Assembly (NCBI RefSeq): GCF_003790525.1
Contig: NZ_CP033635.1
Strand: one strand, 5' to 3'
Origin: Escherichia coli
GTDB lineage: Bacteria; Pseudomonadota; Gammaproteobacteria; Enterobacterales; Enterobacteriaceae
Length of the DNA: 64,000 bases
Shown here in pieces: positions 17,835-63,794 of the stretch. The position numbers and the translations under genes were made by a program. The notes beneath the pieces are model-generated. The model saw only the letters and a program-made list of their open reading frames with translations. It was not told the DNA's origin and did not search any database. Within the stretch, counting starts at the first letter, position 1. Every line of letters starts with the position of its first letter.

Positions 17835-18824
17835 TTAGCCACCAATGTACGATAAGTTTTGCGTAATACCGGTGTTGTTTTGATGCAGGAAATGGGTCTG
17901 TTTTTTCTCCCGCAGCGCCGCTGAAATACGCGCTTCCAGCGCCTGTTGCTGGGTATCGTCTTCCAGCAGATCGCGCAGGTTAACGCCGCCTTCACCAAAC
18001 AGGCAGAGATGGAGTTTACCAATGGAGGAAACGCGCAGGCGGTTGCAAGTGGCGCAGAAGTCTTTTTCATACGGCATGATAAGGCCAATCTCTCCGGCGT
18101 AATCCGGATGACAAAAGACTTGCGCGGGACCGTCGCTGCGTTGACGTAATTGGTGGATCCAGCCGCGACGCAGTAGCTCGTCACGCAGAACCTGACCAGA
18201 GATGTGATGCTTACGGAAGAGCTCGCTGCCCTCGCCCGTTTCCATCAATTCGATGAAACGCAGCTGGATAGGGCGATGCTGGATCCAGTTCAGAAAGGTG
18301 TCGAGCTGATGATGATTAACATCACGCATCAGCACGGTATTGACTTTGACCTTCTCAAAACCGGCCTCAAATGCAGCATCGATTCCTGCCATGACCTGGT
18401 TGAATTTATCCTGCCCGGTAATGGCATGAAACTGGCGGGCGTCCAGACTATCAACGCTGACGTTGATGCCAGTAAGTCCAGCATCGCGCCAGTTCGCCAC
18501 ATCGCGTTCCAGACGGTAACCATTGGTGGTGACAGCAATCTGGCGGATAGCGTCGTTTTCTCGCACAGCGGCGATGATATCGGTAAAGTCGCGGCGTAAA
18601 GACGGCTCACCGCCCGTCAGACGGACTTTTTCGGTGCCCAGACTGGCGAAGGCGCGCGTAACCCGGCGAATTTCATCGACGGTAAGAAAGCCTTTATTGG
18701 TGACGCCGCTCGGTTTGTAGCCATCCGGCAGGCAGTAGGTGCAACGAAAGTTACACACATCGGTAATCGACAGGCGCAAGTAGTAAAACTTACGCGCAAA
18801 TGCATCAGTCAGTTGTGAAGCCAT
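17835..18824 (-). CDS. moaA: GTP 3',8-cyclase MoaA (radical SAM, 329 aa)
   Basis: [31 protein letters not shown]... (CxxxCxxC motif); track ORF extends 27 codons upstream from a TTG into the leader; coordinate uncertain by +/-1. Confidence 0.94.
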
Positions 18825-18825
18825 G

Positions 18826-18965
18826 TACACCTTTCCAGATACGGGAGGCGAAGTCATTTCTTCCTTCGCCCTGGTGGCAATCTTTACGAGCATTGTCACG
18901 GCCAAAGCACCGTATCAGTTGACCCAGGTGCAGAGGCTAGAGTGTTTAGTGGTTAAGCCGATACT
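18826..18965 (-). ncRNA. Molybdenum-cofactor (Moco) riboswitch in the moaA 5' leader
   Basis: Structured GC-rich leader immediately upstream of the moaA ATG; position matches the known E. coli moaA Moco RNA element; boundaries approximate. Confidence 0.55.
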
Positions 18966-18999
18966 AGCGTGTAAATGAGATTTTTACCATCCACACTTT

Positions 19000-19023
19000 C
19001 GCTATGTAATCATGTATATAGCG
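19000..19023. promoter_or_regulatory. ModE-type palindromic operator (CGCTATGTA-N6-TATATAGCG) upstream of moaA
   Basis: cgctatgtaatcatgtatatagcg; TAYAT half-sites in inverted arrangement as in ModE sites. Confidence 0.5.
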
Positions 19024-19160
19024 TCATGATCGTGCTATTTCGCTACAGAATAAGGGAAAATGGCGGTTTTACTTTGATATACATCATCAGGAAGGCATAG
19101 CGTACATCGTCCTTTAGAGGTAGAAGAAAATAGTTTGTATCCTCAATATTGGCAGGTTAA

Positions 19161-20129
<969 letters not shown>

Positions 20130-39689: not shown

Positions 39690-40462
39690 TACTTGGTTGT
39701 AAATCCGTAACGTTTAAAGATTTCCGCTGCCTGCGGTCCCTTCAGATAATCATAAAATGCTTTCACTGTCGCATTGTTATGCCCTTCCACAACAGCAACC
39801 GGATATTCCACTTTTTTATGTGAATCTTCCGGGAAGGTGGCAACCACTTTTACCCCTTTGCTGGCAACTGCGTCAGAACCGTAAACAATACCCAGCGGCG
39901 CTTCATTGCGTTCGACCAACGCCAGCGCGCCACGAACATCTTCCGCCGGAGCCAGTTTCGGGGAGAGCGTATCCCATGCGCCCAGTTTTTGCAGTGCTTC
40001 TTTCGCATAAATGCCAGCAGGGACATGTTCCGGATCACCAACCGCGAGGCGACCGCCATTCAGCAGCGAAGTCCAGTTGGTTTTGCTGTCGATGGTGAAA
40101 TCTTTCTGCTCGCTGGCTTTCGGTGCTACAACGACCAGGCTATTGCCGAGCAGTGTCTGGCGCGAAGCCGTATCGATCGCTTTTTTATCAACCGCATAAT
40201 CCATCCATTTCTGATCGGCAGAAATAAACAGATCCGCAGGCGCACCCGCTTCAATCTGACGGGCCAAAGTAGATGACGAAGCGAAAGAAGAAACCACATC
40301 CACGCCTTTCTCTTTTTTATACTGCGTAGCAATGTCCTGCATTGCGTTAGTCAGTGATGCGGCGGCGAACACCGTGATTTTCCCTTCATCTGCCAGTGCA
40401 TTGCCAGCAACAGCGAAAGAGAGCGCCGCCCCGGTAAACAAGTTCAACCATTTACGAGCCAT
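39689..40462 (-). CDS. modA: Molybdate-binding periplasmic protein ModA (257 aa)
   Basis: ORF track 257 aa with signal peptide MARKWLNLFTGAALSFAVAGNALA. Confidence 0.96.
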   Translation of the reverse strand: MARKWLNLFTGAALSFAVAGNALADEGKITVFAAASLTNAMQDIATQYKKEKGVDVVSSFASSSTLARQIEAGAPADLFISADQKWMDYAVDKKAIDTASRQTLLGNSLVVVAPKASEQKDFTIDSKTNWTSLLNGGRLAVGDPEHVPAGIYAKEALQKLGAWDTLSPKLAPAEDVRGALALVERNEAPLGIVYGSDAVASKGVKVVATFPEDSHKKVEYPVAVVEGHNNATVKAFYDYLKGPQAAEIFKRYGFTTK

Positions 40463-40481: not shown

Positions 40482-40505
40482 CGTTATGTAGGCGTCAATA
40501 TAACG
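40482..40505. promoter_or_regulatory. ModE operator at the modA promoter (CGTTATATTG-N5-TACATAACG palindrome)
   Basis: cgttatgtaggcgtcaatataacg, 20 nt upstream of modA ATG. Confidence 0.65.
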
Positions 40506-63554: not shown

Positions 63555-63794
63555 CAAATATGTTAATGAATAAACCAAATTGATCCCGTAATTATATTAC
63601 GCCGCAAAATCCTTACAATAAACAGGTTTTTATTGAGCAAATTTGCATTTTTCGACAGTGATCAATTTATAGCGAAATTGTCACGATCTCACCAATTTGA
63701 TCTACGACAATTTATCGTGTTTTGCAGATTTTTTTCAAGAATTAAAAATTGATTTATATCAAAACCAACCAAATATGTTAATTATGTATAAACC
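63555..63794. promoter_or_regulatory. AT-rich cydAB control region with two copies of an AAATATGTTAAT(G/T)...ATAAACC direct repeat (ArcA-box-like TGTTAATTA cores)
   Basis: acaaatatgttaatgaataaacc (about 63555-63577) and ccaaatatgttaattatgtataaacc (about 63769-63794). Confidence 0.4.
63749..63762. promoter_or_regulatory. FNR-type site (TTGAT-N4-ATCAA) in the cydA upstream region
   Basis: ttgatttatatcaa, about 340 nt upstream of cydA ATG in an AT-rich region. Confidence 0.5.

What the first reader, a model, noticed from the sequence alone, without database searches (positions are those of the whole stretch)
18826..18965. moaA leader carries the Moco riboswitch; the track's 356-aa moaA ORF is an artefactual 5' extension
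The ORF track starts moaA at a TTG 27 codons upstream of the real ATG (MASQLTDAF...), running into the structured leader. That leader corresponds to the known E. coli molybdenum-cofactor riboswitch, with a ModE-type palindrome further upstream at about 19000-19023.
Basis: established knowledge. Interest (0 to 1): 0.3.

Follow-up and report, generated by a model that had tools for sequence, protein, structure and literature searches.

The report
Known Moco riboswitch before moaA
The leader of the E. coli moaA gene in this window is the well-known molybdenum-cofactor (Moco) riboswitch, and the longer moaA reading frame that runs into it is a gene-calling artefact, so the finding is correct but ordinary.

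Summary
The finding is confirmed and the element is already known. Rfam's Moco RNA model (RF01055) matches window 18956..18812 on the minus strand over its full length, at 103.4 bits against a gathering score of 36. RefSeq annotates the same 145 nt as "molybdenum cofactor riboswitch" in 100%-identical E. coli genomes. The aptamer differs from the experimentally studied K-12 sequence at one unpaired base.

moaA starts at the ATG at 18824 and encodes 329 aa. The 356-aa ORF starting at TTG 18905 is not coding, nor is a 340-aa form starting at ATG 18857 that some gene callers pick:
- MoaA family models and the S. aureus MoaA structure begin at the 329-aa start.
- Relatives carry in-frame stops or an 11-nt indel in the "extension".
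- Substitutions there avoid third codon positions, and the stems covary.

The Shine-Dalgarno sequence lies in the 3' strand of P1. This fits the published model: Moco-dependent repression of translation, with Rho termination inside moaA and CsrA counter-regulation.

The ModE palindrome at 19000-19023 is real, with one mismatch to the consensus and 0.01 matches expected by chance. An FNR-like site lies at 19074-19087.

Direct Moco binding to this RNA was not shown in the papers I could read. That gap is in the field, not in this window.

The parts
18812..18956 (-). Moco RNA motif (riboswitch aptamer plus built-in expression platform), 145 nt
   Evidence: Rfam RF01055 at 103.4 bits against a gathering score of 36, full model. 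RefSeq annotates a 'molybdenum cofactor riboswitch' at the same coordinates in a 100%-identical genome. Present in 5424 of 5426 complete E. coli genomes and at least 99% identical in 5396.
18940..18946 (-). P1, 5' strand
   Evidence: Rfam consensus structure mapped onto the window sequence. Every P1 pair shows covariation in the 93-sequence alignment (helix 3).
18826..18831 (-). P1, 3' strand (GGUGUA), which contains the core of the Shine-Dalgarno sequence
   Evidence: Structure mapping. PMC2408646 places the ribosome binding site within P1.
18901..18937 (-). P2 hairpin with an internal loop. CCUGGG...UACGG resembles an 11-nt tetraloop receptor. The artefactual TTG (18905-18903) lies in its 3' strand.
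   Evidence: All 11+3 P2 pairs show changes on both sides across relatives (helices 5-6). The resemblance to the classic CCUAAG...UAUGG receptor is my own reading of the sequence.
18874..18899 (-). P3 hairpin. In PMC2408646 its presence marks the Moco-type rather than the tungsten-cofactor-type variant.
   Evidence: All 5 pairs covary (helix 7). Disrupting P3 and then restoring it abolishes and restores regulation in K-12 (PMC2408646).
18846..18871 (-). P4 hairpin with an 11-pair stem and a GAAA tetraloop (18860-18857). It contains an SD-like AAGGAAG and the in-frame ATG at 18857-18855.
   Evidence: helix 8: 7 pairs change on both sides. The 340-aa form that starts at this ATG is present in public annotations.
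18835..18845 (-). P5 mini-hairpin (CC...GG) within the invariant core GCCUCCCGUAUCUGGAAAGG
   Evidence: The core pattern retrieved 120 loci across many phyla, and 92 of the 99 searched match a full aptamer model.
18828..18832 (-). Shine-Dalgarno core AGGUG, 3 nt upstream of the AUG
   Evidence: Read from the sequence. The GGAAAGG-N5/6-start codon arrangement is conserved in enteric, Aeromonas and Vibrio moaA leaders.
17835..18824 (-). moaA coding sequence (329 aa, GTP 3',8-cyclase). The true start codon ATG is at 18824-18822.
   Evidence: RefSeq and K-12 annotation. TIGR02666 positions 1-336 map to residues 32-356 of the long ORF. Residue 1 of S. aureus MoaA (1TV7) aligns to residue 28. 73-89% of CDS substitutions fall at third codon positions.
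18825..18905 (-). Artefactual 27-codon 5' extension of the ORF track (TTG 18905). It also contains in-frame ATGs at 18893 and 18857.
   Evidence: Shown to be non-coding. The 356-aa form matches the original CFT073 GenBank protein AAN79335.1.
18954..18954 (-). Proximal, ModE-dependent transcription start S1 (about +/-1 nt). A -10-like TAGTAT lies at 18966-18961 and a weak -35-like TGGTAA at 18989-18984.
   Evidence: Inferred from primer sequences that begin at AACCACTAAAC in PMC2408646 and PMC7815308. The hexamers were read from the sequence; the consensus promoter scan found none.
19000..19023 (.). ModE operator, centred about -57.5 from S1
   Evidence: Inverted repeat. One mismatch to the ModE consensus core, against 0.01 matches expected by chance. 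Consensus taken from PMC545781. ModE activation of S1 is cited in PMC2408646.
19074..19087 (.). FNR-like site TTGAT-ATAC-ATCAT, centred about 40 nt upstream of the distal start S2 (about 19041)
   Evidence: one mismatch, but 6 matches in the window against 2.5 expected by chance, so it is not significant on its own. The position fits S2 at -87 and the FNR dependence described in PMC2408646.
18816..18816 (-). Position equivalent to the abundant Term-seq RNA 3' end at K-12 817052, just past the base of the aptamer
   Evidence: PMC7815308 supplementary tables. Mapped to the window through the K-12 alignment.

Best explanation
Window 18812-18956 (minus strand) is the E. coli moaA leader RNA. It is a member of the Moco RNA motif (Rfam RF01055), the candidate molybdenum-cofactor riboswitch.

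Transcription. There are two weak, activator-dependent promoters: the proximal S1 (start about 18954), activated by molybdate-bound ModE at the operator 19000-19023, and the distal S2 (start about 19041), which depends on FNR.

The RNA. The 5' UTR folds into five helices (P1-P5) around a conserved junction. The moaA Shine-Dalgarno sequence (AGGUG, 18832-18828) lies in the 3' strand of P1 and the adjoining junction.

The switch. When Moco or a late Moco-pathway product is abundant, the folded, liganded aptamer keeps P1 closed. The ribosome cannot load, so moaABCDE translation is repressed. Untranslated moaA mRNA is then open to Rho-dependent termination inside the ORF. CsrA binding within the aptamer counteracts repression.

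The ORF. The true moaA start is the ATG at 18824 (329 aa). The 356-aa ORF (TTG 18905) and the 340-aa form (ATG 18857) are gene-calling artefacts that read through the aptamer.

What is shown here: family membership, structure with covariation, the start-codon assignment, and the ModE site.
What comes from the literature on the near-identical K-12 sequence: Moco-dependent repression, P3 dependence, the Rho and CsrA effects, and the transcription starts.
What is inferred: direct binding of Moco to the RNA.
For: Family membership and annotation:
- The RF01055 hit scores 103.4 bits against a gathering score of 36 over the full model.
- RefSeq annotates the riboswitch at the same coordinates, with moaA starting at 18824.
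- The aptamer differs from K-12 only at the unpaired first base.

Structure:
- 35 of the 41 consensus pairs are standard pairs in the window sequence.
- A model built from 4 enteric sequences found full-length aptamers in 92 of 99 loci retrieved with only the 17-base core.
- On that alignment 89.4% of cells pair, against 37-46% when partners are slid. 34 of 41 pairs change on both sides.

Start codon:
- MoaA homologues start 5-6 nt after GGAAAGG.
- TIGR02666 and the 1TV7 structure begin at or just after Met28 of the long ORF.
- Vibrio and Aliivibrio have an in-frame stop 11 codons upstream. Citrobacter Cu233 has a stop at -25. The Enterobacter aptamer match is 11 nt shorter.
- 73-89% of CDS substitutions are at codon position 3. 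The 81-nt 'extension' changes mainly at positions 1 and 2, and none of the 11 third positions in its last 11 codons changes.

Regulatory sites and literature:
- The ModE pattern has 2 matches in the window, at moaA and at the modA operator, against 0.01 expected by chance.
- PMC2408646, PMC7815308 and PMC7652899 supply the functional evidence.
Against: - PMC2408646 calls the RNA a riboswitch 'candidate' because Moco was too unstable to test for binding in vitro. A 2024 paper states that the regulating metabolite is still unidentified (PMC10845959).
- I found no ligand-bound structure.
- Single-sequence folding does not reproduce the consensus: the minimum free energy is -42 kcal/mol against -32.4 for the consensus structure, with a z-score of only -1.57.
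- The simple sigma-70 scan found no promoter.
- The FNR-like site is not significant on sequence alone.
- I could not read Anderson et al. 2000 or Patterson-Fortin et al. 2013, so promoter coordinates and CsrA sites come second-hand.
Confidence: 0.92

Rival explanations
1. The leader is a conserved structured RNA, but it is not a direct Moco sensor. Repression is instead mediated by an unidentified Moco-binding protein, or by CsrA alone, acting on the RNA.
For: - Direct ligand binding has not been shown (PMC2408646; PMC10845959).
- CsrA does bind two sites in the aptamer and changes translation (PMC7652899).
Against: - The motif is conserved with strong covariation across very distant phyla.
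- It is joined to different expression platforms in different organisms (PMC2408646).
- No protein factor has been found.
- CsrA activates rather than represses.
- P3-containing and P3-lacking variants track Moco and tungsten-cofactor metabolism respectively.
Confidence: 0.06
2. The 5' extension is real. E. coli makes an N-terminally extended MoaA, either 356 aa from TTG 18905 or 340 aa from ATG 18857, the latter preceded by the SD-like AAGGAAG.
For: - The frame is open.
- Both long forms exist in GenBank and in automated gene calls: CFT073 AAN79335.1 (356 aa) and ATCC 8739 ACA78490.1 (340 aa).
- An SD-like AAGGAAG ends 3 nt before ATG 18857 (read from the sequence).
Against: - Family models and the solved homologue start at Met28.
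- Vibrio and Aliivibrio have an in-frame stop 11 codons upstream and start at the homologous position. Citrobacter Cu233 has a stop inside the extension. The Enterobacter aptamer match is 11 nt shorter, which shifts the frame.
- The substitution pattern is that of an RNA, not of a coding region.
- Both false starts are buried in helices supported by covariation: the TTG in P2, and the ATG in the loop and stem of P4.
- 329 aa is the form on at least 1000 contigs and in the curated K-12 annotation.
Confidence: 0.02
3. The element acts mainly by premature transcription termination (Rho-dependent attenuation) rather than by blocking translation initiation.
For: - There is an abundant 3' end 8 nt into the ORF and a Rho-dependent region inside moaA.
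- A moaA 5' UTR+ORF fusion rises more than 2-fold in the rho R66S mutant (PMC7815308).
Against: - The SD lies inside P1 and no intrinsic terminator follows the aptamer.
- The 3' end at the aptamer base has a Rho score of 1.24 and is scored not Rho-dependent.
- Regulation was seen with translational fusions driven by a constitutive promoter.
- Rho termination in the ORF is the expected consequence of untranslated mRNA, so it complements the main explanation rather than competing with it.
Confidence: 0.1

Closest known systems
Moco RNA motif / molybdenum-cofactor riboswitch of E. coli K-12 moaA (Rfam RF01055; Regulski et al. 2008, PMC2408646)
   Same: It is the same locus and the same gene order (uvrB, ybhK/yvcK, moaABCDE). 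The aptamer is identical to K-12 except for the unpaired first base (U in the window, A in K-12). It has the same P1-P5 architecture with the SD in P1, and the same ModE and FNR sites.
   Different: Nothing functional. There are three single-base differences from K-12 in the 397-bp intergenic region, at 19104, 19092 and 18956. The window is 100% identical over a 551-bp segment to other strains, including FDAARGOS_497.
P3-lacking Moco-motif variants proposed to sense the tungsten cofactor (PMC2408646)
   Same: They share the junction core and helices P1, P2, P4 and P5.
   Different: The window element has a P3 hairpin (18874-18899), so it belongs to the Moco-type group.
Other translational OFF riboswitches with the SD inside P1 (for example SAM-II/SAM-V or preQ1-II type platforms)
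   Same: The aptamer and the expression platform are merged, and ligand-stabilised pairing hides the ribosome binding site.
   Different: The fold and the ligand are unrelated. The comparison concerns mechanism only and rests on general knowledge; it was not tested here.

Membership tests
Moco RNA motif (Rfam RF01055) | Covariance-model score at or above the curated gathering score | tested here: met
   103.4 bits against 36, E 1.2e-24, model positions 1-135 of 135.
Moco RNA motif (Rfam RF01055) | Five helices P1-P5 around a multistem junction, supported by covariation | tested here: met
   35 of 41 consensus pairs are standard pairs in the window sequence. Across 93 sequences, 89.4% of cells pair against 37-46% when partners are slid, and 34 of 41 pairs change on both sides. 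Two caveats: the alignment was fitted to the model, and the basal P4 pairs and P5 are fixed by my search pattern.
Moco RNA motif (Rfam RF01055) | Conserved junction core (GCCUCCC...UGGAAAGG) | tested here: met
   The core is present at 18849-18830. The same core retrieved 120 loci, of which 92 of the 99 searched carry a full aptamer.
Moco RNA motif (Rfam RF01055) | GNRA tetraloop on P4 and a tetraloop receptor in P2 | tested here: inconclusive
   The GAAA loop at 18860-18857 is present. The P2 internal loop reads CCUGGG...UACGG where relatives have CCUAAG...UA(U/A)GG, so it is a deviant receptor. The tertiary contact cannot be tested here.
Moco RNA motif (Rfam RF01055) | Located upstream of a Moco biosynthesis, molybdate transport or Moco-enzyme gene | tested here: met
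   moaA-moaB-moaC follow directly. 51 of the 120 core matches elsewhere also precede a MoaA homologue.
Moco RNA motif (Rfam RF01055) | P3 present (Moco-type as opposed to tungsten-cofactor-type) | tested here: met
   P3 lies at 18899-18874, with 4 of its 5 model pairs standard. The criterion comes from PMC2408646.
Metabolite-sensing riboswitch (strict sense) | Direct, selective binding of the ligand by the RNA without protein | not testable with these tools
   This was not shown in the literature I could read (PMC2408646; PMC10845959). No structure was found.
Metabolite-sensing riboswitch (strict sense) | Ligand-dependent control of the downstream gene through the RNA structure | not testable with these tools
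   Published for the near-identical K-12 leader: repression when Moco synthesis is on, lost in the P3 mutant M1 and restored in the compensatory mutant M2 (PMC2408646).
ModE operator | Match to ATCGNTATATA-N6-TATATANCGAT | tested here: met
   19000-23 has one mismatch to the 18-base core, against 0.01 matches expected by chance. The only other match in the window is the modA operator.
FNR site (class II activator position) | TTGAT-N4-ATCAA centred near -41.5 of the start site | tested here: inconclusive
   There is one mismatch at 19074-19087, but such matches are not rarer than chance (6 found, 2.5 expected). The centre is about -40 from S2, as derived from PMC2408646 numbering.

The most novel reading that the evidence does not exclude
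The ~139-nt RNA running from S1 (about 18954) to the abundant 3' end at 18816 is essentially the aptamer alone. It could accumulate as a stable fragment with a function in trans. Because it carries the two CsrA binding sites, it might act as a Moco-responsive CsrA sponge that links cofactor status to the Csr regulon. My evidence does not address this. It only shows that the 3' end reported in K-12 maps exactly to the base of the aptamer.
Probability: 0.04. Interest if true: 0.5.

Novelty: already known. Interest (0 to 1): 0.07.

Why it matters
The finding has little scientific weight because it re-identifies a textbook element that RefSeq already annotates at these coordinates. Its practical value is for annotation. 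A naive longest-ORF track, the original CFT073 GenBank annotation (356 aa), and some automated gene calls (340 aa) all read MoaA through the riboswitch. The aptamer's purine-rich conserved core mimics a Shine-Dalgarno sequence and keeps the frame open. Masking RNA-family hits before choosing start codons would avoid this. The real open question is whether and how this RNA binds Moco directly, and this window does not advance it.

Tried and rejected
- Single-sequence RNA folding of the aptamer. The minimum-free-energy fold (-42 kcal/mol, z -1.57) recovers P4 and part of P3 but not P1, P2 or P5. The consensus structure scores -32.4 kcal/mol. I rejected it as evidence either way, since riboswitch aptamers commonly depend on tertiary and ligand contacts.
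- The consensus sigma-70 and terminator scan. It found no promoter. The one terminator-like site lies inside the yvcK start region on the wrong strand and was not used.
- A plain MAFFT alignment of 35 leaders (A2). The core aligned well but the variable stems did not, so I replaced it with a model-guided alignment.
- Fetching Anderson et al. 2000 (PMC94831), Studholme & Pau 2003 (PMC317290) and Patterson-Fortin et al. 2013 (PMC3710303). None is held. Promoter positions, the ModE consensus and the CsrA data are therefore second-hand.
- A search for a ligand-bound structure or a binding study. None was found.
- Plus-strand ORFs antisense to the leader (18800-18922, 18823-18978). I considered them and rejected them because they are short, unannotated in K-12 and RefSeq, and overlap an RNA under structural constraint.

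Full report
**Observation**

A 356-aa ORF on the minus strand (17835..18905) starts at a TTG. Its first 27 residues ([27 protein letters not shown]) precede MASQLTDAF, whose ATG is at 18824-18822.

A scan of the whole window against Rfam 15 gives one riboswitch hit: RF01055, the Moco RNA motif. It lies at 18956..18812 on the minus strand and covers model positions 1-135 of 135. It scores 103.4 bits against a gathering score of 36, with E 1.2e-24.

The RNA element covers 18812-18956 and so includes the start codon and four further codons. 18957-18965 is promoter DNA.

**Identity with annotated genomes**

A 551-bp segment around the leader matches 5424 of 5426 complete E. coli genomes. In a 100%-identical genome, RefSeq annotates a "molybdenum cofactor riboswitch" at exactly the cmscan coordinates. 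It also annotates moaA (990 bp, 329 aa) starting at the position equivalent to 18824, between yvcK/ybhK and moaB. K-12 MG1655 b0781 has the same start.

The window differs from K-12 at three bases of the intergenic region. Only one of them is in the aptamer: its unpaired first base, 18956. The 145-nt aptamer alone is at least 99% identical in 5396 genomes, and only 28 fall in the 95-99% band.

**Structure**

I mapped the Rfam consensus onto the window sequence:
- P1: 18946-18940 paired with 18831-18826
- P2: 18937-18901
- P3: 18899-18874
- P4: 18871-18846, with a GAAA tetraloop at 18860-18857
- P5: 18845-18835

35 of the 41 model pairs are standard pairs.

For an independent look at covariation, I scanned one genome per species for the core GCCTCCCGTNNNTGGAAAGG. 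A covariance model built from only four enteric sequences plus the Rfam structure found aptamer matches in 92 of the 99 loci searched, nearly all spanning the whole model.

On that alignment 89.4% of cells form standard pairs, against 37-46% when the 3' partners are slid by 1-3 columns. 34 of 41 pairs show changes on both sides, and none of 500 shuffles reaches the observed values.

Two caveats apply. The alignment is fitted to the model. The basal P4 pairs and P5 are invariant by construction of my search pattern.

Single-sequence folding does not recover the consensus, so I do not use it as evidence.

**The ORF extension is an artefact**

Five lines of evidence agree.

1. The MoaA equivalog model TIGR02666 (positions 1-336) aligns to residues 32-356 of the 356-aa ORF. 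Residue 1 of the crystallised S. aureus MoaA (1TV7) aligns to residue 28.
2. 51 of the 120 retrieved loci have a MoaA homologue directly downstream. In enterics, Aeromonas, Vibrio and Aliivibrio the protein alignment begins at E. coli residues 1-5, with a start codon 5-6 nt after GGAAAGG.
3. In most Vibrio and all Aliivibrio loci the frame upstream of that start closes after 11 codons. Citrobacter sp. Cu233 has a stop 25 codons upstream. The Enterobacter aptamer match is 134 nt against 145 nt, an 11-nt difference that shifts the frame. Its upstream "peptide", like that of Lelliottia, is unrelated to the E. coli one.
4. Between the window and five enteric relatives, 73-89% of substitutions in the moaA CDS fall at third codon positions. 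In the 81-nt "extension" they fall mostly at positions 1 and 2. In its last 11 codons none of the 11 third positions changes, although about 43% of CDS third positions do in the same comparisons with the Citrobacter, Lelliottia and Enterobacter relatives.
5. The TTG lies in the 3' strand of P2, and the in-frame ATG at 18857 is the last A of the P4 tetraloop plus the first two stem bases. Both helices are supported by covariation.

An exact-sequence look-up shows that all three forms exist in public databases:
- The 329-aa form is on at least 1000 contigs.
- A 340-aa form starts at ATG 18857, for example in E. coli ATCC 8739 (ACA78490.1) and in many automated calls.
- The 356-aa form is in the original CFT073 annotation (AAN79335.1).

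The artefact is therefore a recurrent one. The SD-like AAGGAAG in P4 probably attracts gene callers to the 340-aa start.

**Regulatory DNA upstream**

The only inverted repeat in 18950-19230 is CGCTATGTA/TATATAGCG at 19000-19008 / 19015-19023. The E. coli ModE consensus is ATCGNTATATA-N6-TATATANCGAT (PMC545781).

Its core pattern, allowing up to two mismatches, has two matches in the 64-kb window against 0.01 expected by chance. One is this site, with one mismatch. The other is at 40482-40505. That second site lies 21 nt upstream of the modA start codon, between acrZ and modA, and is the modA operator. It acts as an internal positive control.

According to PMC2408646, citing Anderson et al. 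2000, the proximal start S1 is ModE-dependent and the distal start S2, 87 nt upstream, is FNR-dependent.

Primer sequences in PMC2408646 and PMC7815308 begin the transcript at AACCACTAAAC, which places S1 at about 18954 and S2 at about 19041. On that basis:
- The ModE site is centred near -57.5 of S1, just upstream of a weak -35-like TGGTAA (18989-18984), with a -10-like TAGTAT at 18966-18961.
- An FNR-like TTGATATACATCAT at 19074-19087 is centred about -40 from S2.

The FNR-like match is not significant on sequence alone, with 6 matches found against 2.5 expected. The simple promoter scan finds nothing, as expected for activator-dependent promoters.

**Mechanism**

What the sequence shows: the Shine-Dalgarno core AGGUG (18832-18828) and the purine tract GGAAAGG are part of P5, the junction and the 3' strand of P1. 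A closed P1 therefore occludes the ribosome binding site, which ends 3 nt from the AUG.

What the literature shows for the near-identical K-12 leader:
- A translational lacZ fusion driven by a constitutive promoter is repressed when Moco synthesis is switched on. It is derepressed by a P3-disrupting mutation and repressed again by the compensatory mutation.
- Tungstate does not substitute for molybdate, and variants lacking P3 track tungsten-cofactor metabolism (PMC2408646).
- CsrA binds two sites in the aptamer and activates translation (PMC7652899).
- Term-seq finds an abundant 3' end at K-12 817052, equivalent to window 18816, just beyond the base of the aptamer. There is a Rho-dependent region inside moaA, and a 5' UTR+ORF fusion rises more than 2-fold in rho R66S (PMC7815308).

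My reading is that translational repression is primary. Rho termination of the untranslated message follows from it, with 3' trimming back to the structured aptamer. That last step is inference.

Direct binding of Moco to the RNA had not been shown in the papers I could read. The word "riboswitch" therefore still rests on genetics and comparative analysis.

**Comparison, novelty and verdict**

This is not merely similar to the known E. coli Moco riboswitch. It is that element, in another E. coli strain. Every defining feature of RF01055 that can be tested in silico is met. The exceptions are the tetraloop receptor, which deviates from the usual CCUAAG...UAUGG, and ligand binding, which cannot be tested here.

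Novelty: already known. Interest is low.

The most novel reading the evidence does not exclude is that the aptamer-only fragment acts in trans, for example by titrating CsrA. I give that about 4%.

Noticed in passing
window 40482-40505: There is a second ModE-type palindrome, CGTTATGTAGGCGTCAATATAACG, 21 nt upstream of the modA start codon (ATG at 40461, minus strand). It lies between acrZ and modA and is the modA operator. It served as a positive control for the ModE pattern.
   Followed up: yes
window 19161-19222 (+ strand): The ORF list also over-extends the divergent gene yvcK/ybhK. It gives a 322-aa ORF from TTG 19161, whereas RefSeq and K-12 annotate a 909-bp CDS (302 aa) starting at ATG 19222. 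This is a 20-codon artefact of the same kind as the moaA one.
   Followed up: partly
window 18855-18857: An in-frame ATG inside the P4 loop and stem is preceded by the SD-like AAGGAAG. It is used as the moaA start (340 aa) in some GenBank records (for example ATCC 8739, ACA78490.1) and in many automated gene calls. This false start is more widespread than the TTG.
   Followed up: yes
window 55227-55365 (- strand): There is an Rfam hit to the CpoB/ybgF ICR thermometer (RF02782) at 140.2 bits against a gathering score of 51, covering the full model.
   Followed up: no
window 53706-54300 (- strand): A tRNA cluster holds six genes, in transcription order Lys(UUU), Val(UAC), Lys, Val, Lys, Lys. From memory, K-12 has seven at this locus (lysT valT lysW valZ lysY lysZ lysQ), so this strain may have one Lys copy fewer. 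I did not check this against K-12.
   Followed up: partly
window 63749-63762: There is a perfect FNR consensus, TTGATTTATATCAA. By collinearity with FDAARGOS_497 it lies about 127 bp upstream of the cydA start codon, which is consistent with FNR control of cydAB.
   Followed up: partly
window 18816: This position is equivalent to the abundant Term-seq RNA 3' end reported in K-12 (817052). It falls 2 nt beyond the outermost aptamer pair. A ~139-nt aptamer-only RNA may therefore accumulate. Its function, if any, is unknown.
   Followed up: partly
window 19000-19023 relative to about 19041: The ModE operator lies downstream (+18 to +41) of the distal FNR-dependent start S2. Bound ModE could in principle impede S2 transcripts while activating S1. 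I did not find this addressed in the papers I could read.
   Followed up: no
whole window /: The 356-aa ORF is identical to a CFT073 GenBank protein. The best genome match, FDAARGOS_497 (5,231,450 bp), is nearly the same length as CFT073 (5,231,428 bp). The window probably comes from CFT073 or a very close relative.
   Followed up: no
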